DNA of 56,963 bases, filler included, from Dugesia japonica (Eukaryota), in assembly GCA_001938525.1 (NCBI GenBank). It is 5 parts of 5 records of this genome, joined end to end, with 100 filler letters (N's around TTAATTAATTAA, not from the genome) between each part and the next. Parts side by side here need not be neighbours in the genome. Positions count along the whole stretch, not along the records: positions 27,902 to 44,011 come from MQRL01546115.1; 4 more parts are not named here. The stretch is one strand, 5' to 3'. This document shows positions 3,940 through 51,337 of this stretch, piece by piece (position 1 is the stretch's first letter; each line of letters starts with the position of its first letter). The notes beneath the pieces were generated by a model, which saw only the letters and a list, made by a program, of their open reading frames with translations, did no database searches and was not told the DNA's origin. The position numbers were made by a program, and so were the translations under genes.

Positions 3940-4922
3940 AATTCTTCGATCAACAACAGCGGATGAAATAAATGTTTGTCTAAAGTACTTTAATCTTGGC
4001 GACACCAATAAACGTTAAACTTAACTACAGATATGCATGTCCATCTGCAAAATAATCGACCAGCTGAGATATTTTCACATCAATTACTGGAAATTTGGAA
4101 AGGAAATGCGTCGATTTATTTTATTTCAGAACGAATTTCATTGCATCATCACTTCTTCAATTGATTGACGTCAAATGAAAAATTGGTTTAAAAGTATTTT
4201 CCAATATTCAAACCAATTATCAGAATCACGAACGTATGTGTGAACGAACTATTCTTGCGGGCAGGAACAAAGACTTCTACGAACTTAATAATATTATTCA
4301 GCCTAACATTCAAAGCGAGACAGTCACATACCAGTCCGTTGATATGGTTCTAGAAGTAGATGAAAAGAAAAACTATTATTTATCCAACAAAATTTCTGAA
4401 TACACCAATCTCTCAAGGACTCCCCTGCATGCACTGCAATTGAAAATCTGCGTGCTAATTATCATGTTACGAAATAACAACCAACCAAATCTTTGCAACG
4501 GCACGCGGCTTGCAGTTAAAAAGTTAATGAGCAAAGTCCTAGAACCAGCAACTATGATAGAACCTTTTAAAGGTGAAAATTCCATCATTCCTCACATTCC
4601 TATGTTCCAATGGATATACCATTTCAATTTAAGAGATTGCAATTCTTAATTCAATTTACGTTGGCAATCATCAAGAAATCTCAGGGCCAATCTTCAGAAT
4701 TATGAAGTTTAGATCTAGACAAATTGCTTTTCACATGGCAAATTGTATGTTGCATGTTCTAGAGTTAGCAAACCAGGCAATCTTTGCATCTGCACAGATA
4801 GTGGAACAACACAAAATATTGTAAACACACAAACATTGTGAAATTAAACATCAGAAACCTGCGCTTTCTATTTTCCATTTAACCAGACTGACCCACAGCA
4901 ATGTGTGACCGAGTACAGCTAG
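3940..4922 (+). mobile_element. Helitron 3' end with decayed PIF1-type helicase
   Basis: IIMLRNNNQPNLCNGTRL, PFQFKRLQF, KSQGQS and FSHGKLYVACSRV helicase motifs; subterminal hairpin CACA-GCAA-TGTG (~4894-4905); CTAG 3' terminus at 4919-4922 followed by T. Confidence 0.93.
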
Positions 4923-15300: not shown

Positions 15301-18300
15301 AATTACTTTTGACACAATTTCTCTCAAATTTTCCATCTATTCATTTTTCAAATAATTTATGACTTTTTTCGTGCCTGCGTGCACCAATAAATTATGCACT
15401 TCTTTTACAAATTACATTTTATTTTCTGGCAAGATCCATATTTTGCCGTTTTTTGTTTTTATTATATCTCCTATTAATCGAAACGTTTTGCATGTTCCAT
15501 TTTTTATATCATTCTTTATCTGTTCAATTTCTTCTATCTTGTTTTGCCATTTATATGTATCTGAACCTGATATACCATTAATTGTTCTTGTTTTTATTTT
15601 TTCTTCGTTTAGATTCTCATGATCTGTTAAGGATTGTACACACTTACTATAATTCATTCTCGACAGCATATCTGCATTTGTATGTTTTGCACCTTGTTTA
15701 AATTCCAATACCATATCTAGATTACTAAGAAAATTCACTCAAGTCTGAAATTGCGGAGTAATTGGCTTGTTTGTCTTTTTCATAAATGTTATCGCCTTGT
15801 GATCTGTTCTCACCAAAAATCCTTTTTTATACAAATAATGTTTAAATTGGTTACAAAAATAGTAAATAGCCAATAATTCTTTCCTTGTTATACAATATCC
15901 TCTTTCAACAACATTGTATGTAATCCATATGCAATGACTTGTTCTACACCTCTTTCATCTATTTGCGATAAAACTGCTCCGATGGCATCAAAACTCACGT
16001 CTGTATCTAGTACAAACATCTTTAAGATATCTGGAAAACTCAATATCGGTGCTTTTCTTTATGTCTCTTTCAGTTCATTGAAAGCTTTATCACAATTTTC
16101 AGACCACACCAGTTTTGTATTATTACTTCCACATAGCTCTTCCAAGCTTCTAGCTTTCTTTGAGTAATTTTTAATAAACCGTCTAAAGTAATTGCATATT
16201 CACAAAAGGCTCCTCAAGTTCTACACACATTTAGGTCTTCCGAATTTTTTTTATCGCTTCAACTTTTGTTAGATCTGTTCAAATTACATTCTTGTGTATC
16301 AATCCAGATTCTTGAATTCTTTTAAAAACTTGGTCTAAAATTCTAAAGTGCTGCTCTAAATTATCTGAAAATACCAATATATCATCCACGTATACCATTG
16401 TTTCTCTCAATCGTCCCAATACTTTTGTCATTAATTCTTGAAACGTTTCAGGTGCTGCAGCTATACCAAAAGACATTCTTGTGAAAACATACTATCCATT
16501 TTTCGCAGAAAATGCTGTTTTCTCTTGTGAATCTGTATGTATCGGAACGTGATGGTATGCATTACCCAAATCAGCAGTACTAAAATATTTTGCACCACTC
16601 AAATTGTCTAGTATTTCCTCTACATTAGGCATCGGAAACCTGTTTTTCTGTGATTGCATTCAGTTTTGTAAAATCCAGACATAATCTCACGAATTTCATT
16701 TATTTATTTCCAAACACATATTAACGGAGTGTTCCAATGCGAATTACACTTCCTAATACTGTATTGTCTAACAAATTTGTGATAGCTTCATCTATCTTAT
16801 TCTTTAAATGCATTTGTTATCTCCATGGTTTTGCATTTATTGGTTCTCCATTTGTGATTATTTGATATTCTGCCATTGTTGTTCTGCCAATATCCCAGTT
16901 GTGTGCCACGAATATTCTTTTATGAATCATTATAACTTTCTCTAAATTCTCATTTGGCTTATTAGTTAATATTTTTATTGCTCTGTTTTATCTCTTTTCA
17001 TCCATACTTTCTTCTATATTACAAAGATACATTTCATTATTCTCACATTTAATCTCTCTCAGCAGTTGGAATCCAAACTATTTCTGTAATTTGATTCTTC
17101 TTAATAGATCTTGATTTATCTGGTTCACGAAAATGAATTTAACTGTTTCGCTTTTATTTTCGAATTCCACTTCTGCCTTTATCGTACCTACGATTTCAAG
17201 TGGACTATTATTAGCACTTCTTAAATTGTCTTCACTTTTTAATATATTGACTTTTCTAAATCTTTCCAAAATTCTCAAACTCATCACATTAACGCTTGCT
17301 TCAAAGTCTAACAAGCAATCAACTTTTACGCCTTGTATTTCGACCGTTATACTTGGTCTATCTTACATCTTGTCATAACTTATCTCTTGTCGCTTTATTT
17401 TTACTATCGTCAGAATTGCACTCTCATCTTCACTATTTATATCATTGATTATCTCTGGTTGACCTCTTATCGATTCTTTCTTTACAAACTTGTAAACATT
17501 TTATTTTAAATTATTGTACTCATCTACTCGTTTATCTTCGTTTCTTTTATTTATATAAGTATTCGGTCGGAGCTTGGCCATTTGAGTATTCATCTTGATA
17601 AATATTTGATACTTCACTTCAATAGTGGACTTTGTCTTCTCTACATGTATAATCTCTTCCATTTTCCTCAATTGAATTAAGGTGACTTCCATTCCTTTTT
17701 GTGTAATTATTTTTATTGTTTGAATAATATCTTTGTTTGCCATTTCCGAATTCTTTTCTGACCTGTTTACTTTTGTTATGATAACTAAACTGTCTGTACA
17801 TATTTATGTAACAGTTCTTTGTGTTACGTCCTTTCTTGTTGCATCTTGAGAAACTAACTTTAGTACAGTCTCTTATCAAGTTTTGTTCAGATTCACAAGC
17901 ATAGCACTTTATTTTTCTTTCTTGACAATTTCTGGTTACATGACCTATTTTGTTACAGGTCCAACACTTTATTTCTCGTCTTTCGTTGTTTCTGTTCTGT
18001 CGCATTCTTACATTTTGACTCTTGTTGAAATTTGTTTGTTCTGGGTTTCGGCGAACTGCATCTCTGTATTTACGAACTACATTTATTTCTTCAGTTCTTA
18101 CTTCGTCTTTTATGTCTTCCCACTCTTTTATTGCTTTAAATATATCTTTTACCTTTTCTCTCTTTCCTGATTTGATCCTTTGTTTAATCTTTCTGTCATT
18201 GAAACTATTTATTATTAACTTCTTTGTTAAATCATCTTTGTTCTATTTATGAGCTATTAACTTCTCTACCAATCTTTCAATCTTCTTTTTATAGATATTT

Positions 18301-18553
18301 ATATGCTCTCCATTCCTTCGATAATTTAGAGCTTCCTCCATAACTTTAAGCATTGTTGATGGCCTAAATAAACCCCTTCTGAATCCTTTTTCAAATCCAA
18401 ATGCTTCGTCTTTATTTTCATAGATTTCCCGTAAATCTTTGTCTATGAAACCATTTGCAACCAAACTCCTATGTCCTTTCTTTATTACGTACAGATTATT
18501 ATTATACAGATAGAATTTTCGACCTCATCGCCCATTTTGACAATTCCAGGAAT
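15300..18553 (-). mobile_element. Ty3/Gypsy retrotransposon, decayed gag-PR-RT-RH, 3'-truncated
   Basis: PBS-like TGGGCGATGAGG (18534-18523), CWTCNKIGHVTRNC knuckle, CLLDFEAS protease remnant, SFGIAAAPETFQ and YVDD RT, TDVS and ELLAI RNase H; many stops. Confidence 0.95.
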
Positions 18554-21859: not shown

Positions 21860-23300
21860 ATATTTCACATTTTTAAGAATTTTTTTGATCTTCTCTAAGT
21901 TTCTTTCGAGAATTTTCCGTTTGTATCTTCAAGGATGTAACGTCTGTAATGAATCTTTCTCTTAATCTTGTCTTTTGGTTAATATTTCTTCCTCGTGTTC
22001 TTTGTGCACTCTTTGAGTATTGGTTTCATACCATTTTCCTCTGCTCATTCCCTTCCCAAATACGATTTCAACAGGGCTTTTTTCGATAGTTTTCTGTTTT
22101 GTAGAATTTAAAGTAAATTCTATCTCAGACAATACTTCCAACCAATCTGAAGTTTTCCTTTCTTTAAGCTTTGCAATAATCATATCCCCCAGAGTTCTAA
22201 ACTGCCTCTCGATTTGCCCATTTGTGTTATGATGATATTGACTCGAAAACCTGATGGTAATGCCATGTTTAACAGCAAAATCTTTCATTAATTTTGACTC
22301 AAATGCTTTTCCACAATCAACTCAAATTTCTCTCGGACACCCGACCTTTAATATCCACTTCTCTAATATTAATTTCCGTATGGTATCTTCATATTGTCTT
22401 GTCATTCCTATCAAGGCTATATACTTACTACATTGGTCTATTATACGGAGAACATAATTTTTCTGACCTCTCGTCTCCGGCAGTGGTCCACACACATCTA
22501 TAAATAACATTTCAAAGATTTCGGCTAGCTGCGCCTTTTATGTTTCTTCCTTTGTTTTTGTTGTCAACACTTAGCTTTCTGTTTTCCTTGTTTTTAATTT
22601 TCCATTTTTGGGATCTTCGTGTGACCTTAGACATTGTGCACATATACCGCATTCATTCCTTGTCAAAATATTCGCATTTGTATGAAGCTATCCTTTTCTA
22701 TATTCCAATTTTATATCTAAACTGCTCAAATAATTAATCCAGGTTTGGAACTGTGATGTAATCGGCTTCTTGGTATTTAGCATAAAAGTGATGGCTTTAT
22801 TGTCTGTTCTGAGAATAAATCTTTTCCCATATAAGTATTCTTGGAAATGAATACAAAAGTAGTAAATTGCGAGCAATTCTTTTCGTGTAGTACAATATTC
22901 TTTCTCATGACTCGTCATTGCGTGTGACCCATATGCAACTACTCTTTCTTGCCCATTGTTGTCTTTTTGAGATAGTACTGACCCAATCGTATCGAAACTT
23001 GCATCCATGTCCAATATAAATCCTCTATTTATATCTGGAAAAGATAATATTGTAGACATCATTAGTGCTTCTTTCATTCCATTAAAAACTTCTTCTAATT
23101 TATTCGCCCATTCAATTTTCTTGTTACTTGGCCCACTACACGGCTGTTCCAGTAATCTAGCTTTCTTTGAATAATGTTTTATAAACTTCCGATAGTAATT
23201 GCAAATTCCCAAAAAGCTTCTCATTTTCTTAACGCATTTTCGTTTACCGAAGTTCTTAATTGCTTCTATTTTAGTTGAATCTGTTTTATTTTAATCTGTT
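21860..23300 (-). mobile_element. Ty3/Gypsy RT-thumb/RNase H/integrase fragment
   Basis: MRSFLGICNYYRKFI, LDMDASFD, ELLAI, RTDNKA, FIDVCGPLP and YHHNTNGQIER motifs. Confidence 0.95.
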
Positions 23301-35225: not shown

Positions 35226-35940
35226 TGGCTTCACAAATGACTGGTCATCCATTTGTATATTTATTAGGAAAGCGACTCCTATCCAAATTTTTAAAGCATC
35301 AAGGTTTTTCTAATTTCCCGATTATCATTAGCATTCCTTTGTTCGAGCCTGACATATTGCAGAAGAAAAGGAGTGTGATACACAGTTTACTTTTCTTATC
35401 GCATACACATTTATTACTTTTAAATATCATTGTTTTATTAATTCATAAAAGAGAGCACTGTCATCAGCATTGTAATTACTATCTTCACTATATTCATTCA
35501 GAAATGACAAAAGAGTGTTCTCTTTTCTTTGTTCGGTGTATTTAGTGAAGCTGATTCACTATAGATTGCGTTAAATATTATTATATGTCTAGATTTAAAA
35601 GAATTGAGAAACCCAGCACTTCCAGTAAACTTTGAGTAGTCGAGATCTTAAGCAAATTGTGTCTGGACTTAAAACAAATTTCATTTTAGAAAAATTTTAC
35701 TTATAAAAAAAATTCTTTAAAAAAATTCTACTATATGAAATCTTAATTTAGGATGTAGAAATCCTTTATTTATATATACACGTGATGCAAAAAAAACATT
35801 TAAGTCTATAGTAAGCTCCAGTATGTTCTATTTAGTAGAGCACAAAAATCTGGAATGTATGTGAAAATAAAGTTTAATAATAAAATATTTTCATTGGAGA
35901 TGTATTAGATTTATTTTAACTATGTTTTAAATTCTTTTAG

Positions 35941-36449
35941 TATTTCGAGCGACTGTCCAATCAAAAGAAACTCATGGTAATATGATTAGATACGAACTAA
36001 AAATCGAGGAAATCTGGAGAGTTGATAAAAAAGTCTGGGAGTTTCTTCCAAGTGAAGTTCCTGCAGTTCACACTTATCCAGCCTGGATTAATTCTGAAGA
36101 TGTTAGATGTAACTGTCCAAAAGTGTCTCTTGGTCATAGTTATTTGATATTAACAAGAGCGAAATATTATATTTATCGAACAAATAAAGAATTATTTATC
36201 GATAGTCGAAGTGTCATGCTGCCATGGCATAATTCATGGGAAAGACGATTAAAGAAATTTCAAAAACGAGAACAACGCGGAAAATGTAAACAATTTTTTA
36301 AGAAGAAACTGAAAATAATCGAAAAAAATAAAACCGATCATTCAATTCAAACAAATGTAAAATCAAGTCAAGAAAAGGGTCCAGATTATGAAAAATTACA
36401 TGATAATAAATACAATCCAAATTACGGCTATTATGGGACTCATAAATGA
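35941..36449 (+). CDS. netrin: Netrin terminal exon (NTR/C345C domain plus C-terminal tail)
   Basis: TTCTTTTAG acceptor; VFRATVQSKE...CNCPKVSLGHSYLIL...IDSRSVMLPWHNSWERRLKKFQKREQRGKC matches the netrin C-terminus (CKCPK...W...W.RRL.KFQ.RE..GKC); TGA at 36447-36449, AATAAA at ~36468. Confidence 0.93.
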
Positions 36450-38138: not shown

Positions 38139-41100
38139 CTAGGTATCACTCATCTAAGATGACAGTTTGTAAATGAGATTTTAGTAGTCTAACAATTTCA
38201 TAACGGTCTTAAAAAATATACTAAACTTTAAGAATTAAAAAAATAAAATTATTTTTAATTCAATAATTCAATAATACAACATTTTGGAAATTTCTAAAAT
38301 ACAAAGTTACTCATTGTTTTCTTAAATTCTCCTAATTAAATTTTCAATTATTCTTAATTTACTTACGTTGTTGTGTTGATATATTGGTTTTGTTGATAGA
38401 TTACTTGAGAAATGCATTTTGATATTCAACATGTCACTTTCAATGATTAAATTATTAATTAAGCTGTTTGTTGTTACGTAATTTATTTAACAAATACTAT
38501 GTTAGTTTTACTTTAAAATGATGTTGGTTTACAATTTTTCCACGTTGTATTCTCTTTTTTCTTCAAAAGAGCATAGTTCAATTTAAAAATAATTTTTACT
38601 GTTACTTTACTGTTAGATTCTAAAATCTATATAATTAAAAGATACGATTAATAGTTAAGTAAAAATATATATTTCATAACAATCAATATTAAAACAAAGT
38701 TTTAATATTTTTTGGTTTTTTAATTTCAATATAAATTGAAATTAATTTCAATATATATCACATCCCTCTCTTTGATCATCTGAACTTTTGGTTCGGATTC
38801 CTGGTAGTCCGCATTGGGTAGCGCATGTCGTTTGATCTTCTTCCTCTTATTTATTTCGCTCATTGATTTATAGCTCTGTGTCTTAGGGAATCTTTTTGAT
38901 TTGATTGTAGTTTCTTTGTATTATATCATTCCCGTTTTTTAAAATAAAAGTCCATTTATCTTTTATTTCTTTACCTACAAACGGTTCAATGTATCTTTGT
39001 TTAAGAGCTCCATTTTCTTGTCATTTGATCATAACCTTGTCTCCTAACACGATCTCCTTGCTCCATCGATTTCTGTTGTAATTCTCTTGTGTCTTAATAT
39101 TTTGATATTCAATATTGTCTCGAACTTTATTATGTATTATCTTTATTTTTTTGCTTCATGTTTTCTAAGTATTTTTCCTAATTTGGTTTGTCTTTGTTAG
39201 TGTTTGCGATATTCCATATGTCAATTTTCGATCTTCTTCCAAACAGGATTTCATATGCTGAATATCTGGTTGTTTTCTGTATTGTATATTGAATGCCGTA
39301 TTCTACTATAGGTAGTGTATGTCTTCCATAACTGCGCTTATCATGGGCTTCACTGTTTATAATAGTCTTTCTACCAACCCGTCGCATTGAGGGTAGTATG
39401 GTGACGTAAATGTCTTCCGTATTCCTAATATTCNACAATATACCCGGAAAAATCCAGAGCAAAAATTACTTCCTCTATCTGAATGGATTCTCTCTGGTAT
39501 TCCAAATTTGGCTATCCAATGTACCCATAGAGAATCACAAATGACTTCCGAAGTTGTTATTCTTAGTGGAATCAAACTTATATATTTTGAAAAATAGTCT
39601 ATTACACCCAGGATATATTTGGATCCTTCCTTAGTTTGTTTGAATGGTCCTGTAATATCTATTTCTATAATCTGAAATGGTTCGTATCCAGTGATGTTTT
39701 GAAATGGTGCTATAATCCTTCATTTTTGGATACTTGTTGTCGTTACATGGATTACATTTAGCAATTATATTTTGCACATCTTTTGATAATGAGGGCCAGT
39801 AATAAGACTTCTGCAGTTTTTTTCCTTCCAAAGTTACCCAACAATTTATGGTATTTCCATATAATTCCGGCATTATGGTTCGGCACTACCAGAAAGTAGT
39901 CATTTTTTTTCTCCAAATATAGAAGTTTTTCTCTTTTTTCTCAGTATATTTGTGCTTCGCTTGTCTCTTTGGTTTGTTTTATCTTGTTGTACTCTTCCTT
40001 TAAACTTTAAGTATTAATTTGATTTTTGGATCATTTTCATGTTACCATTCGTTATTATCATTTTGGATTTTGTTCAAAACCTTTTCTTAGTGGGATGATT
40101 CTGTTCCTCTATTTGATTCTATAGGATATACTTTAACGTTTCGCTTCTTTTCAGGCTCAATATGTTTGATCATGCATTGTTCGCAGTCTTGTAGTCTAGA
40201 TAGAACATCCGCATTTATGTGTTCTTTACCTTTTCAAAATTCTACTATCATGTCGAATACTTCTAGCTCTGCTTTCCAAATACAATACTGTGATGTATTC
40301 GGACTATCCCAGTTGAGCATCCGTTTTAACGCCCAATGGTCTGTTCGCACCACGAATTGCTTACCAATTAGGTAATGTTTCAACTTCATAACAAACGTAT
40401 AAATAGCTAATAATTCTTTCATATTAATTCAATATTGTTTCTGGCTTATTGATAAGGCTTTTGAGGCGTAATAAAGAACCTTTTCTGTTCCATTTTGTAT
40501 TTGTGACAATACAGCACTAATAGCATTATGTGATGCGTCGGTATCCAAAATGTATTTACCATATTTTATTGGTATCGCTAATATTGGTTGTTTTGTAAGT
40601 CTCTCTCTGAGTCCTCTATCCAAGTAAATCTATTTTATTTTCGCAGCATGCCACTGAGTGGTTTTGATATTAACGCATACTCTTTAATAAACCGTCTGTA
40701 GTAGTTACAGAATCTAAGATATTTTTTCTGTTATACTAATTGTTTCGTTTTGAATCTCTTCGTTGTCCTCTGGTTCTGTAATGCTGATTGAATAATATTC
40801 ACTTGTGTTCTCATCATTTTGCTATACAACCTTAATTTATTGTTTTCTTGGCAAAATCGCGCCATGTGTCTTTCTTTTCCAAATTTGAAACATTTCTTAT
40901 TGCTTTGCTCTCCTTTTTTCCATAGGTTATACGCTCGTTTATTTTCTTGGTTTAGTTCCTTGTTTGGATAAGCTCTTTTCGGGTTTTTATATGCTTTCAA
41001 TTTTTCTATTTCTCTCCTTAGTTTCTCTATTTCTAATATTAAGGCTTTAATCGTGTCTTTCTCGTACCTCATGTTGAAAATTAAATTTTCTTCTTTGTCA

Positions 41101-42128
41101 TTAAGTTTCTCATCTTTAATAGCTTCCATAGCCTCGTCTAGCATTTTAGGCTTAAACAGTTCTAATACTACTGTCATTCGCCTGTTAATCAGTCCATTCA
41201 TAAATGCCTTAACTAGAATTTTTTCCTTCATTTCATTAATACTAAGAAATATCATTCGCAGTTTCTTGGCGTAATCTTTTACAGATTTGCTCTTTTCCTG
41301 TCTTATCTTAAAAGACGGCCATAGTCAAACTTATCTTTGACTTTTTGACTTTGCATAGGTTTATTAAAAATTTTTCGTAGCTTTCCATGGTTTGTTTAGA
41401 TTCTTCAAATTTTGGATCGCATCTAATTTCTCTTATGAGATCTTCGTCATAGTATTTTTAGAAAATTTCCTTCTTTTCGCTTTCAGTGATGCCAGAATCA
41501 TCAAATAGTTTTACTAATTCTTTCACTGTATTTAGGTCCTCTTTGATCGTTATAAGGTTCTTCCTATTTTTCTTGAAGACGAACATTTTAGATTCCCGTT
41601 CCTTAAATATGAACTTTTGTATGATTGCGTGCTGCTCACGTGACGCCATGTTAGATTCTAAATTAAAAGATATAATTAAAAGATACGATTAGTAGTTAAG
41701 TAAATATATATTTTATAACAATCAATATTATAACAAAGTTTTAATAGTTTTTGGTTTTTTAATTTTTTAATTTCAATATAAATTGAAATTAATTTCAATA
41801 AATTAATTAATTTCAATTTATATCAAATAAATACATTTTTATAATTCGATCCAAAAATTTATTATTACATTTTTTATAAAAAATAACTGTCAATTTTTAA
41901 ATTTAATTTATTTTTGTGTTACTAAGACTCTATTTATTTAAAAAGACTAATAATTATATTATTATTTTATACAAATTAATTAAATTTGTATGAAACTAAT
42001 GGTCATTTAAACTTTAAGTTCATGCTTCTTTAACTTATTTGTACTTCAAAATAATTTAAATAACCTTAATAACTCAAGCGTTACAGACAAATTCACATAC
42101 ACACAGGCGTAGGGAATAAATGTAAAGA
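38139..42128 (-). mobile_element. Non-autonomous Helitron-like repeat, copy 2, split by a Gypsy insertion
   Basis: CTAG at 38139, homology to 34830-35225 on both sides of the LTR element, and a minus-strand 5' end A|TCTTTACATTTATTCCC at 42128. Confidence 0.55.
38611..41827 (-). mobile_element. Ty3/Gypsy LTR retrotransposon, both LTRs, PR-RT deleted
   Basis: LTRs 41649-41827 (5') and 38611-38762 (3'), PBS TGGCGTCACG, PPT AAGAGAGGGA; gag with knuckle remnant abuts RT-thumb/RNase H (YYRRFIKEYA, LDTDASH) at ~40725; integrase IHSDRGSNF and SPYYPQCDGLVER. Confidence 0.93.
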
Positions 42129-42347
42129 TTCATTTAATAATGGATTTATTCGTAAATCTTTCATTTTATTAGAATGTCGAATTTGACTTATTTCAAATGC
42201 TTGTTTATTAAAATAATATTTTTCTTTTAGTAAATGATTGTATTATTGTAATATTATTTTGGTATTCATTGTTTTTTGTATAATGCTTTCACCTGCAACT
42301 TATTCACTGTAGCAGAAAACTGGTTTGTTGGTTACTTCACTACATTT

Positions 42348-42665
42348 AATGGTTATACTAGCCAAAATTAATGCATTAACTAGAGCGAAACGTGAAGAAA
42401 GGCAAAGAGTTTTTCAAATTTGCCTCAAAAAACGCAAGAAATGTTTATCCCGAAACCAAGTTTTTTTGATGGTTTCAATCAAGATGCCAAAGATTGGATG
42501 CACACAACAAAAGATTTTACAACATTCAATCAAATGGAATTTGCTTGCGCGTTAGATATGCTTTTAAGAGGTGGTGCGAAACAGTTGTGGGAAGAATTTA
42601 CCTATTCAAATCGATTTCGCTACCAATTAAGAGATCGAAAAATAGTTTATGGAAACCTTTACTAA
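42348..42665 (+). pseudogene. Retrotransposon gag N-terminal fragment
   Basis: IPKPSFFDGFNQDAKDWM...ALDMLLRGGAKQLWEE fits the P..FDG......W...L.G.A..W capsid N-terminal pattern; frameshifted. Confidence 0.65.
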
Positions 42666-42914
42666 GGTTGGGGTCCCACCTGAGTTCGATAAAGAAAAGT
42701 GTGGCTGGGGAAAAAACAGCGCTCAGGGGAACTCTTTCAAGAATTTAACCTAACGCCCCTAGGTTAGGTATTCAGCATATTGCAGTTGACCTCTCTCTTA
42801 ATGGGAGGAGCGCGCCCATAGGCCTTTAAATTTGGGTTCACTCTTTTCCCTGTTCCCACGGCTTCATCAAAGATTAGAACGAATTGAACAATAAAAATTT
42901 ATTTTAAATGAAAA

Positions 42915-43297
42915 TTAGATAAGATCCAAAGCGCCCGGATCTAACCACTGGGCTGGATCGGTCGTCAAAAAGTTGAACGCCGCCGAATGATCATTGACAT
43001 ACCCTTGTACCCATGTAAGGTTTCCTAGTTGGCGGGAAAGGTCGGATATATATTGTTTGAGGAAATCGATTTTCTTCTGCAATAGCATTTTATTTTCATT
43101 TTCTAACGCCTTTGTCTGCACTGCCAAGTCATTCTGCTTTTTCACAATCTGATCAAGTTTTTTGATCAGACGATCTCGCTGGTATAAATGCTTAATCAAT
43201 GCTCTATCCGCTTTCTGCTTTAAGTGGCGCTCTAAGAGTAGACGGCGCATTATGCGATGGCACCTTAGCAGACTGTTTGGAAAATTAATGCGTGTCA
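42915..43297 (-). CDS. Unknown coiled-coil protein, terminal-exon-like cassette B
   Basis: CTTCTTTTAG|TG acceptor (phase 1), ~127 open codons with a heptad-rich core, TAA, then AATAAA at 42903-42898; visibly more GC-rich than its surroundings. Confidence 0.55.
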
Positions 43298-43414
43298 CTA
43301 AAAGAAGATATATCATTAAATTATTTCTGTAAAACAGACAAAAGATAATCAAGTGAATAATTCAGAAGGAAGAATGTAGGTATAACAAAACGTTTATTTG
43401 TAAATTTACAAGCA

Positions 43415-43773
43415 TCAAGGACGCGAGGTCTGGTTACCCTTGTCGACCATTAATGGTTCGAGGGGCATAGCAGCTTTTAATCGATAGACGTCTTGTACCA
43501 ATTTGTTTTCGCGGTCTTAGTAGGACCGAATCATCTCAGTAAAAGATTCTAGCTGGGTCTTCAAGACCCTTTCTTGCCTATGAGATGCCTCGGCTTCAGA
43601 CTTGAAGGTAATGCATTTCTTATTGTATNGGCTCACCTTACTGTTCGCGGTGGCAATCTCCGCCTCCCAGCGTCGCTTTGCCAGGCGATAGAGGTCCCAA
43701 GTAATTTCTAGGTCCTCGCTGGTGTCTCTTATTTTCTTAGTAAGAGCTGAAGGACGGTTCAGAGAGGAATGCA
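43415..43773 (-). pseudogene. Unknown coiled-coil protein, terminal-exon-like cassette A (one internal stop)
   Basis: ATATTTTAG|TG acceptor (phase 1); the frame continues past TAA at 43519-43517 as DRENKLVQDVYRLKAAMPLEPLMVDKGNQTSRP* (TGA 43417-43415); AATAAA at 43398-43393. Confidence 0.5.
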
Positions 43774-44011
43774 CTAAAATATTAACGGTTAATGACAGGT
43801 ATTATCATTGAGGTTACGACAGAACTCAGACCCCTTTTTATTAATTTGTTGCATTGACAGAAACTCAAACATTCTTATGGTAACGATAAAAGAAATTCCC
43901 CTTTAGTAAAATAATGAATCAATTCTACACAAATTAATACTAACTAGAAACACATATGTATTTATCAATTCAAACATAAAATAATGAAAACACTATTAGT
44001 TAGTGGCCGCG

Positions 44012-44111
44012 NNNNNNNNNNNNNNNNNNNNNNNNNNNNNNNNNNNNNNNNNNNNTTAATTAATTAANNNNNNNNNNNNNNNNNNNNNNNNNNNNNNNNN
44101 NNNNNNNNNNN
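44012..44111. other. Artificial contig spacer
   Basis: 44N + TTAATTAATTAA (44056-44067) + 44N. Confidence 0.97.
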
Positions 44112-44433: not shown

Positions 44434-47400
44434 TGTGAGGATTAATTAAATTTAGGAATTTTTAAATTTTGTTTAAATATTTTTCTTCAGTTTTTTTTGG
44501 TGTATTAAATTAGAAAAGTTAATCTTCGTCAAAAAGGTTTTATCGGTAATTATTTGATTTTGGAATTTTGGCAAGAATTCCTGTTATTATTAGTAAATAT
44601 TTATGATAAAATTAGATTGTTTTTTACCAGAGGTATGTATACTTCACATGGTGGCAGCGGTTAATAATGACACATTGCAGAGAAATTGTTACCGAGAAAC
44701 TTTAGTAGAGATGGAGAATAGGAAATATTTATAAAACAGTGCGAGTTGTATTTTGCAACTTAAGGGATTAATTCCCAAGAGATTAGTAAAAGCTAGTAAC
44801 GTGTTTATTAGACACTGATTTGATAGAAAAATATTTAAATACGGCAGATAGAGCAACGGGTTTTCAAGAACGTTTACGACTGGCTTTTCACAAGGAAAAT
44901 AATATTTTAGAAGAACTGAAGAGTTTATTAACATTCAGACGAGGAAAACTAGAGTTAAATACATTCATCAAAAAAGCAGAGACTCTAGTAGAAAATATTT
45001 TTGCACACAAAGATTTGACAAAAGAAGCGTTGTTAGCTAAAATTCTAGTGAGTGCATCTGAGAGTAATACTTTATCAAGAGAAGTAGTACTCAGAAAACA
45101 ATTTACGATAACAGAAATTAAGGAAACTTTGGGTTAATTAGATAAAATAAAAGGAAGAAAAGACCATATTGATGCGATAAGAAGTCAGACAACAAGATTG
45201 AATAAGGATTAGCATAAACCAGTAAATCCACAAATAAAGAGACAGGAGCAACTTCGGAGATCAGAAAGAACCGTTGAATGTTGGGGATTTCACAAGAAAA
45301 GCCATATGAAGGTACAGTGTCCTGGAGGAGAATCTATAGTCATCAATTTGAGTAGGAGGTTTATAAAAAATCAAGGAGGAAGATGTTTCGGTTGCGGTGA
45401 TTTGGACCATATTAGAAATGAATGCTCAAAGTTGAAATGTTTCCATTGTGGTAGAGTAAGTCATAAAGCAAAAAGATGCCGAGAAGTTGGGGAAAGTGAT
45501 CGAATAGAGTTTAAAACTGAAGAGAGACGAGAACAAAAAAATTTGGATATTTTAATACAGTTCAAGCGATAGATGAAGGAGAGCAAGATGAGGACAGGTT
45601 AGAAGAAAATTGTTCAGAGTCATTGCACCAAATGGGAGGGCTCCACCAAGAGAAGAGTTGCTAAGGGTCGATTATTAGTAAATACAGATAAGGAGGATCC
45701 TCAAAGTGTGGAGACATGAGAAAATAGAGAAAAGGTTTGCGAAAAAGTGTATAGGTTTTTGAAGAAGGATATGTTTCAATTGGAATGTAATGTAGAATGG
45801 TTGGGTGTGTTGTTAAGAGAACAAGAAATAGAGATTAGATTTGATAGATTACAGGGTAGACAGAGTGTGATGATAACTATCGACGGAGTTGAGTTAGAAT
45901 GCCTTTTGGACATTGGAATCAGCGAAAAATGTTTGGAGAGATGGCCAGAAACAAGAGTAATACCTAGTGAGATGAAATTGCATTGTGCTAATGGTAGTGG
46001 TTTGGTTATCAAAGGGAAAGTACGATTCTAGGTGTAATTAGGTGAGAGCCAATCGTGAATGGAATTTATAGTAGCAGAAAATGTGTTTCCAAATATTATT
46101 GTAGGGATAAATTTCCAACGTATTTTTGGATTTCAGTTACGTAGGGAAAAAGAGTTATCTAGAGAGATAAGAAATAGAGAATTAGTAGAAAATATTGAAG
46201 CAAGATTTCACAAAGAAGCTACAGAAAGTGACAGATGGGAGTGAGTAAAAAATTAGATTGAAATGCGGGATGACAGTTGTTTACAGGTAATTTGTAGATG
46301 GCAGATAAATGCTTCTATAGCGTCAAAATGAGATCTGGGATGCACTCACATTGTGAAGCATGGAATTGTGACAAAATGTGAGGCAATAAATGTAAAACCG
46401 TATAGAATTTGGATGCATCTAGAGAATCACATGGAAGAGACAATTCAAAACTTGGTGGAAAACAATATCATTCAGAAATGTAATTCACCGTGGAATGCAT
46501 CATTAATTTGCATATGGCATAAGGAGAAGAAAGATGGACGACTTTGTCTAGATTTTAGAAGGCTTAACGTAATTACAGAAAGACAAGCATTTCCGAGGCC
46601 TAATGTAGATGGGATGTTAGATGCATTACATGGAAATGTGAATTTCAGCTCAATCGACTTAGGTAANGCATACTACCAAGTTGAACTAGAAAAAGACTTG
46701 CACGAAAAAACGGCCTTTTCGACAAAACATGGGTAGTATTGTTTCACACAAATGCCTTTTAAGATAGCAGCTGCTCCGAGAAATTTTCAGGAGATGATGG
46801 GAAAAGTAATAAATAATATCAATGGAGCGATGATTTATCTCGACAATATACTAATTTTCTCTAAAGACAAGGAAAGTCATTACGCTCGAGTGGAGGAGGT
46901 ATTGAGACGGATAATCAATGCTGGACTGAGAATTAATCCGGAAAAATTTGAATTTTTAAAACGAGAAAATAAAATTTTGGGTCACATCGTAAGTGCAGAG
47001 GGGATAAGAACTGATCCGGCAAAGTTAAAAGCTATCAAAGAATTTTTTAGGCCGAATTGTGTAAAAAAGATGCGCAGTTTTCTTGGGATTTGTAATTATT
47101 ACAGAAAATTTATTAATAATTATGCGGCGAAAGCGAGAAAGTTGGAGCAGTTATGTAGTGGTCCCAGTAATACAAAATTATTATGGAATGATGAATTAGA
47201 CCTAATCTTTTAAGGTTTAAAAAGGGTACTAACTTCAGCACCTTTACTGGCATTCCCTGATTTAGAAAAAACGTTTCCATTGTACACGGATGCTAGTTTT
47301 GAGACCATAGGATCAGTATTATCTCAGACGGATGATAACAATAGAGAAAGGGTTATTGTGTATGGATCGCACCCAATGACTAACCATGAAAAAGATTATT

Positions 47401-48916
47401 GCACGAGAAAAGAATTATTGGAAGTGTACTATTTCTAAAATTTGTTTAAGCATTATCTTTATGAGAAGCAATTTCGATTGCGAACAGATCATAAGTCAAT
47501 CACTTTTATGTTGGGAACAAAGAAGCCAATTACACCACAATTTCAGACTTAGGTGAACTATTTGAGTAGCCTAAACATAGAGTTATTATATAAAAAGAAG
47601 AATTACACAGTAATGCAGGTTTTATGTCCAGACCTAAGTGTAATAACTGCACACAATTTAATTTGTTCCATAAAGGAGCGATGAACTAAAAGATTAAAAC
47701 AAGGATTCTGCAGGAAGTGGTCCCAATGGAGGAAACAGATAAAATGAAATAAAATGAGGAAAGGTACAGAAATGAAGTGATGAGAATGCATAAAATGTTA
47801 TGTCATGTGGGAGTCAAAAAATCGTCAGAATACATTAGAAGACAAAGACAAAAGATTAAATGGGAAGATAAAAATAAGGAGGTAATCCAGGGATGTGAGC
47901 ATTGTGGAAGGACAAAGATATGGACAGTTAGAACAAAAGAAAAAGTGCTAAGAGCTGAACCTAGCAGCCTAGAAGAAATTCTGTGGGTGGTTATTTGTTG
48001 ACCGTGGATATAAACTTTGGGAAGAAAAAAATACATTTTGGGGATGGTGTATCAGTACACTAAATATACAGTATTAATAGCCTTGCCTTAAATGACTATT
48101 AGACTGTTAAAAGTTTAATGGTTTTAATCTAATCGACAGTACAGAAGGTGATACAAAACCAATGGATTCTTAAGTGGGGTTGTCTAAGGTGGTTGAGGGA
48201 AAATTGCGGACAGATATTTGAGTCTAAGGTTATGAAAGAATTTACGATGGATTTGGGAATGAAATTGCTAATATCAAGTCCATAACATCACAATACAAAC
48301 GGACAGATAGAAAGTCAATTCAGAACGGTGAGAGAATGGATAAACACAACGCTGCGCGAGAGAGGCACATCGGACAGGGCTGAAATTCTTCCAGAAGTGG
48401 AGTTTGCGATGAACGCTACTAAACAAAAAAGTACGCAATTTGAGCCCTGGAAAACTTATGTTTGGGAAATGGATTAGTCACGAAGTTATTATAGATTCAA
48501 GAGTTAATTCTTGAGACAATTTCAGATAGGAGAATGTGTGCTAATGAAAAGTAAATGGGGGAAAAAAAACAACGAAAAATATGTTGGACCATGTCTAGTG
48601 GTAGACAAACTGCATGAAAGAAGATATATTCTACAAGATAGTGAAGGCAGGAGAATAGAGAGAAATGTAGAAACAATCAAAAAAATTCTTAAAAGAGAGG
48701 GATGTGAGGATTAATTACATTTAGGAATTTTTAGATTTTGTTTTAATATTTTTATTCAGTTTTTTTGATGTGTTACATTTGAAAAGCTAATCGTCGCCAA
48801 AAAGGTTTTATCGGTAATTATTTGATTTTGAAATTTTGGTAAGAATCCCTGTTATTATTAATAAATATTTATGATAAAAGAAGATTGTTTTTTACAAGAG
48901 GTATGTATGCCTCACA
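44434..48916 (+). mobile_element. Near full-length Ty3/Gypsy LTR retrotransposon (decayed)
   Basis: LTRs 44434-44648 and 48703-48916 (TGT..ACA), ATAAT TSD within (AAT)n, PBS TGGTGGCAGCGG, PPT AAAAGAGAGGGA; order gag(CCHC)-PR(LLDIG)-RT(YLDN)-RH(YTDAS)-IN(HHCC, NTNGQIE); many stops. Confidence 0.97.
44649..44660 (+). promoter_or_regulatory. Primer-binding site, probably tRNA-Leu
   Basis: TGGTGGCAGCGG directly after the 5' LTR is complementary to the CCGCUGCCACCA 3' end of eukaryotic tRNA-Leu. Confidence 0.75.
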
Positions 48917-50225: not shown

Positions 50226-50342
50226 TAATAATATTTTTAAATAAAACATTTAAAAAAATATAAAATAATTTTTGTTTTCAAAACTTAATATTAAAAATAT
50301 ATTAAATTAAATATTTAAATCAATATTAAAATCTCGAATATT

Positions 50343-51253
50343 ATGAGAAATTCTGAAAATCGACTACCCAGTATCATTATTGATAAAAAAATAAATAAAA
50401 GAAATGAAAAATTCAACTACCCAAATTGGAATTCTTTACTTAATGTGCCAAGAAATATTCGTTCAGAAGCTGAAATCCAATATGATGAATTAGAAAAATT
50501 GAGAAACAATGCATGGAAATCGAGAATTAAATTGTATAAATCAGACAATATTTTATTTACTCGTTGTAAACCAGTAAACGGTTTATCGAAAGATTTATTT
50601 TTGAAACGATTTCTCACTTTCCGCCCGATCAGTAATTACGGAAAGAAAAATTGCCATAATATGCTTACAGAAATTTGTGATAAACTCCATCCGGAAAATG
50701 TATTAAATAATCCTCTGTTAGAATCAATTGATAAATTGGATACAATATGTTGTATTGTTACAACGATTGAGTGGTTTGGTGAAATTAATTTATGGTTTTC
50801 AGATAACTCGCTTATTCTATGGAATAATTTAGCTGATTGTTTACTATTGAATAGTCATGATATCGTTACAGAGGCCAGCATTACAATTGCATTCTTGATG
50901 TATAAATTACCAAATCAAAATCCGAAAACAATAATGAAAATTCTCGAAAATTTCATTTTATTAACTAATCATTGTTGTAAAGAATTTGATGATTATTTAT
51001 ATGAGAATAGGAAGACACCGGAATTATTCGAAATTTCAGACGAACAACTAATTATTACAGATTCAAATCCATTAAAATTGACAAATACTGATTTTTATCT
51101 AGTTAGTGTCTTGGTTTACAGTTGCGCATTTCTCATCAATTATAATTTTAATAGTGAAATATTATGCCACTTTGTAGACTGTTATATCGATATGTCTGAA
51201 ATGTGTAGAAACATTTACTTGGATATTTTTATGGCAAGCNTTGGAAAATTAAG
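50343..51253 (+). CDS. Hypothetical host protein, probable first coding exon (~303 aa)
   Basis: Longest intact ORF in the window (322 codons to the stop at 51311), ATG start, likely AG|GTTTGT donor at 51253/51254; helical, Leu/Cys-rich, no TE motifs; family not recognised. Confidence 0.7.
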
Positions 51254-51337
51254 GTTTGTTATTTTATATATTCGTAACATAATTTTCAATTACCATTCAT
51301 ATATTTTATGATAAAATAATAATAATAATAGTAAAAT

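What the first reader, a model, noticed from the sequence alone, without database searches (positions are those of the whole stretch)
42898..43843. Antisense array of phase-1 'acceptor-ORF-stop-AATAAA' cassettes beside a gag fragment: a possible virus-like alternative-terminal-exon unit
Seen: two consecutive minus-strand cassettes (43773-43415 and 43297-42915) each start at a T-rich AG|TG acceptor in the same phase, encode a ~120-aa coiled-coil protein and have AATAAA within ~20 nt of the stop. Another AATAAA (43843-43838) sits just upstream of cassette A, suggesting a further cassette cut off by the contig end. The DNA looks more GC-rich than the host and lies antisense to a gag fragment (42348-42665). 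Inference: one upstream leader exon ending in A would create ATG (A|TG) for either cassette, so one promoter could make several accessory proteins by alternative splicing and polyadenylation, as in adenovirus late units. This could be an accessory module of a large LTR element such as the giant planarian retroelements. A flatworm spliced leader ending in ATG would be out of frame here (ATG-TGC...TGA and ATG-TGA).
Basis: partly seen in the sequence, partly recalled or inferred. Interest (0 to 1): 0.8.

Follow-up and report, generated by a model that had tools for sequence, protein, structure and literature searches.

The report
Spliced accessory cassettes opposite retrotransposon gag
Two small protein-coding cassettes, each starting at a splice-acceptor-like site and ending at a poly(A) signal, lie in tandem opposite a broken gag gene in a very abundant repeat; they are likely accessory genes of a retrotransposon that one shared leader exon would switch between, but this copy is damaged and no spliced RNA was seen.

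Summary
The anatomy is real, with corrections. Cassette B is open (127 codons). Cassette A is broken in this copy by an in-frame stop at codon 86. The upstream AATAAA shows no sign of a third cassette. Both cassettes belong to a high-copy family (about 1,900 contigs laid per DNA run). Divergent relatives stop aligning at or just beyond both AG acceptors, keep a poly(A) hexamer behind B, and keep the A-B order. Differences shared among relatives are mostly silent (7 of 10); differences private to this copy are not (3 of 14). The gag stub is the first quarter of a 394-aa stand-alone Gag, so it is not Burro-like. Best reading: antisense accessory genes of a Ty3/gypsy element, used as alternative last exons of one leader. 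That step is inferred: four RNA runs gave no junction and almost no cassette reads, no leader or LTR is in the contig, and linkage to gag is unproven. The ingredients are known (plant Retand antisense ORFs, HBZ, BLV AS1/AS2, split start codon of springer env); I did not find the combination in print. The scan noted similar split-start arrays earlier on other DNA of this genome.

The parts
42328..42663 (+). Gag stub: residues 4-110 of a 394-aa CCHC Gag; frameshifted, with a stop, and cut off
   Evidence: 75% identity over 71 aa to P0001, E 2e-27; three tblastn pieces in two frames; RNA reads of relatives run on unlike the window behind 42611 and 42662
42665..42851 (.). Conserved non-coding block between gag stub and cassette B; hairpin 42749-42768; purine tract on the minus strand at 42851-42841 followed by TG
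   Evidence: Highest summed contig depth of the stretch laid (42780-42821); 19 and 17 contigs diverge at 42851; RNA reads on both strands at 42688-42760; no Rfam family; folding z -0.47 and -0.12
42898..42903 (-). Poly(A) hexamer of cassette B, 11 nt after its stop
   Evidence: loose ends of relatives that diverge at 42913 (7 contigs in X1, 2 in X8) also hold the hexamer within about 10 nt (table 7)
42915..43297 (-). Cassette B: open frame, 127 codons with the split start; basic N-terminal third, one predicted helix (7-111), acidic tail; no membrane segment
   Evidence: no homologue
43298..43315 (-). Acceptor-like site of B (pyrimidine tract, AG at 43299-43298)
   Evidence: 11 of 15 pyrimidines; relatives stop aligning at 43303 (2 contigs, X13) and 43306 (one locus seen in X1 and X4)
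43314..43316 (-). In-frame ATG six codons upstream of the acceptor of B (rival start)
   Evidence: lies beyond the point where the divergent relatives above stop aligning
43393..43398 (-). Poly(A) hexamer of cassette A, 16 nt after its stop and 95 nt before the acceptor of B; T-rich sequence follows
   Evidence: its conservation was not shown in the listed rows
43415..43773 (-). Cassette A: 119 codons with the split start, broken in this copy by a stop at 43519-43517; no in-frame Met before codon 81; predicted helices 9-46, 50-83, 87-101
   Evidence: most relatives carry another letter at 43519 (612 of 678 depth in X1, 749 of 911 in X4, 50 of 50 in X8); 6 of 8 shared differences silent
43774..43791 (-). 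Acceptor-like site of A (AG at 43775-43774)
   Evidence: Relatives stop aligning at 43775-43776: 4 of 32 listed pieces, loose ends in 4 contigs (X8) and 3 contigs (X13), T-rich on the minus strand; summed depth falls about 16-fold in the next bin
43837..43842 (-). Upstream AATAAA; probably incidental
   Evidence: Not kept in register by relatives; no long frame upstream; AATAAA occurs 3.5 times per kb on this strand
44012..44111 (.). Artificial N spacer: the contig ends here, so leader, promoter and LTR cannot be seen

Best explanation
The stretch is a damaged piece of a high-copy repeat family that holds two protein-coding cassettes, which are likely antisense accessory genes of a Ty3/gypsy LTR retrotransposon and would be used as alternative last exons of one shared leader. 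Shown: tandem cassettes, many relatives, likeness ending at the acceptors, a kept poly(A) hexamer behind B, mostly silent differences among relatives, and a broken gag on the opposite strand. Inferred: this copy lost pol by an internal deletion; an antisense promoter in or near the missing 3' LTR drives a short leader whose last base is A; splicing to 43773 or to 43297 completes ATG; each product ends at its own poly(A) site. Internal acceptors and poly(A) signals are harmless to the genomic RNA only on the opposite strand, which would explain the orientation. The proteins are predicted soluble coiled coils; B, with its basic front and leucine-rich helix, most likely acts as a nuclear dimeric regulator of the element's own expression, in the manner of HBZ or APH-2 (weakest step, about 0.25).
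For: Family: 1951, 1896, 360 and 196 contigs laid in X1, X4, X8, X13; 30 of 30 bins covered in three runs, 24 of 30 in X13. Acceptors: alignment ends and loose ends at 43775-43776 and 43303-43306, with the AG inside the aligned part. Order: one divergent locus (52 differences in 272 nt, seen in X1 and X4) has B, then 148 unlike letters, then the end of A (tables 5 and 8). Coding: 7 of 10 shared differences silent, none at codon position 2, against 0.29 expected (binomial p 0.009); 3 of 14 private differences silent (Fisher p 0.035). Small indels: 2 of 9 rows fall in the frames, which fill 742 of 1231 nt. A has no Met before codon 81 and an in-frame stop 10 codons upstream, so it needs a spliced or non-AUG start. 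TG follows only 34 of 673 pyrimidine-rich YAG sites in the window. Precedents.
Against: No joint in four RNA runs (8, 211, 151, 231 reads laid; 6-26% of each run read; 85% likeness); B had almost no reads, A a few at 43603-43724. Reads over A and over gag have opposite strand bias; under the usual stranded convention the reads over A come from the plus strand, so they are not A's mRNA. RNA-guess contigs in X13 cross the acceptor of B unspliced (records 11, 12; may be DNA). The silent-site test rests on 24 of the 40 listed rows out of 573, on a cut at 0.75 that I chose, and 8 of the 10 shared rows are in A, so B is barely tested. Invariance of AG|TG could not be read (533 rows hidden). 14 joints, several inside the frames, show many decayed copies. 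B has an upstream ATG in this copy. No contig was laid across the gag/block junction, so linkage is adjacency only. A shared leader with its own ATG and any last base would fit the phases as well as a split ATG.
Confidence: 0.45

Rival explanations
1. Real accessory genes of the element, but independent ones: each has its own promoter and own 5' exon or start (B could start at the ATG at 43316), so there is no choice between last exons.
For: In-frame ATG upstream of B; A and B share no sequence; maize Grande's antisense gene is cited as transcribed from its own promoter (title in the reference list of PMC11963269); no junction seen.
Against: The spacer from the stop of A to the acceptor of B is 117 nt and must hold a poly(A) site, leaving little room for a promoter, exon and intron; divergent relatives stop aligning at 43303-43306, before that ATG; both acceptors have the same phase and the same TG.
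Confidence: 0.17
2. The cassettes are sense-strand 3' genes of an element that reads on the minus strand (purine tract at 42851-42841, LTR starting with TG at 42840), or lie inside a long LTR; the gag stub is a separate insertion or an inversion joined head to head.
For: Family likeness begins exactly at the purine tract (19 and 17 contigs diverge at 42851) and depth is highest just beyond it; relatives of gag and of the block each run on unlike the window at the junction; the window is a patchwork of nested elements; an earlier AI note places a micro-gene row in a presumed solo LTR (e1-9268182, unchecked).
Against: A kept AATAAA behind an internal sense gene would cut the genomic RNA short of the 3' LTR (inference); gag and the block have similar RNA depth, about 45-70; gag stub plus 3' region is the usual form of an internal deletion (general knowledge).
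Confidence: 0.2
3. A small operon resolved by spliced-leader trans-splicing: cleavage behind A frees the acceptor of B about 95 nt downstream.
For: Spacing fits the 300-bp limit used for flatworm operons, and S. mediterranea has trans-splicing (PMC12582326, passages).
Against: The leader's AUG gives 4 codons (A) and 0 codons (B) before a stop; re-initiation could rescue B at Met17 but A only at Met81, while the front of A is among the most widely kept parts of the family.
Confidence: 0.08
4. Chance frames and motifs in AT-rich repeat debris, or exons of an ordinary host gene.
For: A is broken here; no homologue, family or fold match; almost no RNA reads; AATAAA is common.
Against: 0 of 5000 shuffles give two cassettes; silent-site excess; GC step at the frame borders; about 1,900 contigs per run.
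Confidence: 0.05

Closest known systems
Plant Retand / Grande / RIRE2 antisense ORFs (PMC11963269; abstract and passages read)
   Same: Ty3/gypsy elements with extra ORFs antisense to gag-pol, often more than one, some with Smc-type helical domains, proposed regulators.
   Different: Plant lineage; ORFs mostly over 600 bp with TRP28; the passages read give no shared leader, split start or poly(A) site per ORF. Here about 120 aa, no TRP28, likely an animal host.
Deltaretrovirus antisense units: HTLV-1 hbz, APH-2/3/4, BLV AS1/AS2 (PMC10186651, passages; PMC5457497, passages)
   Same: Spliced antisense transcripts from the 3' LTR; helical regulators; BLV makes two spliced antisense RNAs and uses alternative polyadenylation.
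   Different: One protein gene per virus (hbz) or probably non-coding (BLV); no bZIP match here; here two unrelated coding cassettes in tandem; not a retrovirus of vertebrates.
Drosophila errantivirus env, springer subclade (bioRxiv 10.1101/2023.08.03.551782, passages)
   Same: Start codon completed by splicing in a gypsy-type element.
   Different: There AU|G, one sense-strand Env-F gene; here A|TG inferred, two antisense soluble proteins with no signal or membrane segment.
CERV of C. elegans Cer1 (PMC10309623, passages)
   Same: Lineage-specific accessory protein of an animal Ty3/gypsy element made from a spliced mRNA; needed for export of the genomic RNA.
   Different: Large, sense strand, single gene; no sequence match was sought or found.
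Burro / GYPSM1 giant planarian elements (PMC6431247, passages)
   Same: Very abundant gypsy-like elements with accessory ORFs, probably the same kind of host.
   Different: Gag is fused into a 4,873-aa polyprotein; the Gag relative here is 394 aa; the word antisense does not occur in that paper's main text.
Adenovirus major late unit (recalled, no call)
   Same: Logic only: one leader, several acceptors, several poly(A) sites.
   Different: DNA virus; each late ORF has its own complete start codon; no homology.

Membership tests
Ty3/gypsy LTR retrotransposon | Gag with capsid region and CCHC knuckles | tested here: met
   Stub is 75% identical to P0001, which has CCHC knuckles (Pfam E 0.001-0.005, below curated cut-offs; nucleocapsid hits in PDB)
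Ty3/gypsy LTR retrotransposon | pol in the order PR-RT-RH-IN | not testable with these tools
   No pol in this copy; no genome held; no related locus in viral or metagenome collections. The gypsy label rests on the Gag type and on the neighbours.
Ty3/gypsy LTR retrotransposon | Paired LTRs, primer site, polypurine tract | tested here: inconclusive
   No repeat of the region elsewhere in the window; contig ends at 44011; one purine tract on the minus strand
Ty3/gypsy LTR retrotransposon | Dispersed, many copies | tested here: met
   About 1,900 contigs per DNA run, half under 90% alike
Burro / GYPSM1 | Gag fused at the front of a ~4,900-aa polyprotein | tested here: not met
   Only relative among proteins of 157-2000 aa is 394 aa, with a second 394-aa cluster member; proteins over 2000 aa were not searched
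Retand-type antisense ORFs | [quoted passage not shown] | tested here: inconclusive
   Antisense to the adjacent gag stub; pol and LTR missing; linkage not shown
Retand-type antisense ORFs | TRP28 domain | tested here: not met
   No such Pfam hit at E up to 5
Deltaretrovirus antisense gene (hbz type) | Spliced antisense RNA from the 3' LTR | tested here: inconclusive
   No joints in 4 RNA runs with almost no cover of the cassettes
Deltaretrovirus antisense gene (hbz type) | bZIP domain | tested here: not met
   Only weak generic coiled-coil families, all far below cut-off
Springer-type env with split start codon | Start codon completed by the splice | tested here: inconclusive
   TG follows both acceptors and A has no other early Met; donor not seen
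Springer-type env with split start codon | Env-F glycoprotein with signal peptide and membrane anchor | tested here: not met
   About 120 aa; highest 19-residue hydropathy 0.62 (A) and 0.24 (B)
Spliced-leader operon of flatworms | Same-strand genes within 300 bp | tested here: met
   117-nt spacer (criterion)
Spliced-leader operon of flatworms | Leader AUG or own AUG gives the protein | tested here: not met
   Leader AUG out of frame for both; A's first Met is codon 81
Adenovirus-type late unit | One leader joined to several acceptors with separate poly(A) sites | tested here: inconclusive
   DNA pattern fits; no junction or 3' end seen; feature recalled, no call

The most novel reading that the evidence does not exclude
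An animal LTR retrotransposon family runs a second, antisense transcription unit built like a viral late unit: one leader ending in A, a row of unrelated small genes that have no start codon until spliced, and a poly(A) site behind each. Splice choice then licenses and selects the protein, read-through and unspliced RNA stay untranslatable, and new cassettes can be added as modules. Similar rows noted on other DNA of this genome would make it a general design of these elements.
Probability: 0.33. Interest if true: 0.75.

Novelty: new variant of a known kind. Interest (0 to 1): 0.52.

Why it matters
If true, it shows retrovirus-like or DNA-virus-like gene regulation in an invertebrate retrotransposon, with a set of small regulators that gene finders miss because they have no ATG in the DNA. 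It would give a testable handle on how very abundant elements persist under piRNA control and become active in particular tissues (tissue-specific activation of gypsy-type elements in planarians: PMC8532177, passages). One RACE or long-read experiment decides it. This copy itself is a fossil.

Tried and rejected
No genome is held, so full copies, LTRs and the leader could not be looked up. The look-up of sequencing runs listed no holder on record as RNA; that blank is no evidence on expression. Homologue searches for B found none (26 candidates, 70-224 aa only; one hit, E 7e-5, a 742-aa repeat protein with 9 stretches, rejected as a repeat artefact) and none for A (3 candidates, 64-207 aa only). 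Related loci: none; motif scan of viral contigs: none (the pattern was too strict to match even the window's own form). ESM Atlas gave no answer. Fold searches: no match for B in viral models or A in PDB; single long helices carry little signal. Rfam: two chance hits, E 0.65 and 9.1; I weighed pistol, twister, hammerhead and HDV-like layouts for the block by eye (recalled consensus) and none fitted. No tRNA. Rejected: third cassette upstream; Burro membership; env; paralogy of A and B. The genome paper that named Burro is not held, so its text and supplements, which may annotate these ORFs, were not seen; repeat libraries such as Repbase were not searchable. Searches for the combination in print; none showed it in the listings. 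PMC13524379, PMC12801592 and PMC11410931 (term look-ups) held nothing relevant. Earlier-findings look-ups by sequence and by relatives were empty. No complex prediction was run.

Full report
1. The observation. On the minus strand, TAG|TG stands at 43773 and at 43297, and in both places one added base puts TG in frame with a long reading frame. B is open for 127 codons to a stop at 42917-42915; AATAAA follows 11 nt later. The frames are 48% and 43% GC, the 117-nt spacer 24%, the window 27%. The pattern is beyond chance as far as shuffles can say: it occurs twice in the window, both times here, and 0 of 5000 local shuffles gave two on one strand. The pattern was defined after the fact, and A passes only with a pyrimidine cut-off of 9 in 15. 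The upstream hexamer is at 43842-43837; nothing upstream looks like a gene (longest open stretch 37 codons, 29% GC). The contig ends at an artificial spacer at 44012.

2. The gag stub. The plus-strand frame matches one protein among 7 candidates, P0001, at 75% identity. P0001 is a 394-aa Gag with CCHC knuckles, in a cluster of 3 unnamed members. The window holds residues 4-110, in shifting frames and with a stop, and breaks off at 42663. RNA reads of relatives go on differently there. So this copy is a decayed, truncated piece. Burro elements carry Gag at the front of a 4,873-aa polyprotein (PMC6431247, passages), so the link to them is not supported, though proteins over 2000 aa were not searched. 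The host is organism A; earlier AI notes call the genome planarian or flatworm-like, which I did not check.

3. The family. With no genome held, I laid contigs of four runs on 42780-44010. 1951, 1896, 360 and 196 contigs were laid, about half under 90% alike, covering 30, 30, 30 and 24 of 30 bins. X8 is a second organism. Contig depth is no copy number, but this is plainly an abundant, diverse family. At the stop in A most relatives carry another letter (612 of 678 depth in X1), so the break is private to this copy. At the acceptor of A, 4 of 32 listed pieces end at 43775-43776 (two with long unaligned remainders, two near their own ends), loose ends begin there in 4 contigs of X8 and 3 of X13 and are T-rich on the minus strand, and summed depth drops from 4210 to 240 (X1) and 3827 to 246 (X4) in the next bin; two listed pieces cross the site. 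At the acceptor of B, loose ends begin at 43303 in 2 contigs, and one divergent locus seen in X1 and X4 aligns over 43035-43306, has 148 unlike letters, and rejoins in A. Behind B, relatives that diverge at 42913 still hold the hexamer within about 10 nt (7 and 2 contigs). Depth in the A-B spacer is not clearly lower than in parts of the frames, so that border is weaker. The upstream hexamer is not kept. Only 24 of 856 loose-end rows and 40 of 573 substitution rows were shown, so invariance of AG|TG was not read directly.

4. Coding. Of the 40 listed substitutions 25 lie in the frames; I left out the break site and classed 24. Where under three quarters of relatives differ from the window, 7 of 10 are silent and none is at codon position 2 (0.29 expected, p 0.009). 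Where nearly all differ, which marks changes private to this copy, 3 of 14 are silent and 7 are at position 2 (Fisher p 0.035). This is the signature of a selected gene family and a dead copy. Eight of the ten shared sites are in A, so B is thinly tested, and the cut was my choice. Two of 9 small-indel rows lie in the frames, each in one contig; 14 larger joints show decayed copies.

5. The proteins. Both are predicted helical from single sequences (mean pLDDT 86, pTM 0.42-0.45), without hydrophobic segments; B has a basic front and an acidic tail. They do not match each other, Pfam above cut-off, protein collections or fold libraries. Function is therefore inferred from context only.

6. RNA. 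Four raw RNA runs gave 8, 211, 151 and 231 reads at 85% likeness, nearly all on gag and on 42688-42760. B was almost bare, A had a few reads, and there were no joints; 47 loose-end rows were hidden. The expressed relatives are mostly under 90% alike, so their cassettes may have escaped the threshold. Strand bias over A is opposite to that over gag; under the usual convention the reads over A are plus-strand RNA. The splicing model is neither shown nor refuted.

7. Mechanism. A has no Met before codon 81 and a stop 10 codons upstream of its acceptor, so it needs a start from elsewhere. Both cassettes begin in the same phase with TG, which follows only 34 of 673 comparable sites. The spacer is too short to hold a poly(A) site plus a promoter, exon and intron with ease. 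One upstream leader serving both acceptors is the simplest account, with A|TG the simplest start, though a leader with its own ATG would also fit. Kept poly(A) signals and acceptors inside an element are tolerable only opposite to the genomic RNA, which agrees with gag on the other strand. Against that, likeness in the family begins at a purine tract that could mark an LTR of a minus-strand element, and I could not test the gag junction. I give the full model 0.45: real genes of a mobile family about 0.9, working acceptors about 0.75, same element as gag and antisense about 0.65. A spliced-leader operon is unlikely because the leader's AUG (PMC12582326, passages) is out of frame for both.

8. 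What is known. Antisense extra ORFs are a mark of plant Retand, Grande and RIRE2 elements. Spliced antisense units from the 3' LTR, with alternative polyadenylation in BLV, are known in deltaretroviruses. A spliced accessory regulator is known for Cer1. I did not find the combination, a row of start-less last exons each with its own poly(A) site, in the listings; the paper that named Burro, its supplements and repeat libraries were out of reach. The scan has noted split-start and micro-gene rows on other DNA of this genome; these are unchecked AI notes and no independent support, and sequence look-ups did not tie them to this family.

9. Verdict. A real and coherent feature in a dead copy: new variant of a known kind, interest 0.52. 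The bold reading, a viral-late-unit design on the antisense strand of an animal retrotransposon, has probability about 0.33 and would deserve 0.75.

Noticed in passing
42665-42851: Conserved non-coding block with a hairpin (42749-42768) whose C-rich loop could pair with the G-run at 42726-42729; covered by RNA reads on both strands; no Rfam match. Could be a cis-acting RNA element of the family.
   Followed up: partly
42851-42840, minus strand: Purine tract followed by TG at the exact point where relatives diverge; would mark an LTR start in the opposite orientation.
   Followed up: partly
42306, minus strand: A third pyrimidine-rich CAG|TG just upstream of the gag start; with a split start it gives only 13 codons. 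It could also be read as a donor after an A.
   Followed up: partly
43444-43424 and 42932-42918, minus strand: A ends with a stretch resembling an LC8 dynein light chain site (DKGNQT) and B with one resembling a CtBP site (ALDLI); both motifs are recalled, imperfect and untested.
   Followed up: no
42383-42626: RNA reads over gag have a 3:1 strand bias opposite to that over cassette A; under the usual convention most gag-region RNA would be antisense.
   Followed up: partly
whole window: The window joins several small contigs by N spacers and is mostly decayed Ty3/gypsy elements (for example 44500-48900 plus, 38700-41800 minus, 15400-18500 and 21900-23300 minus).
   Followed up: partly
35931-36449, plus: Exon of a host gene with a netrin-type NTR module (Pfam E 9e-12).
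   Followed up: no
4179-4649, plus: Pif1 helicase 2B fragment (Pfam E 5e-9), probably a Helitron-type remnant.
   Followed up: no
50319-51311, plus: 330-codon open frame with no Pfam match.
   Followed up: no
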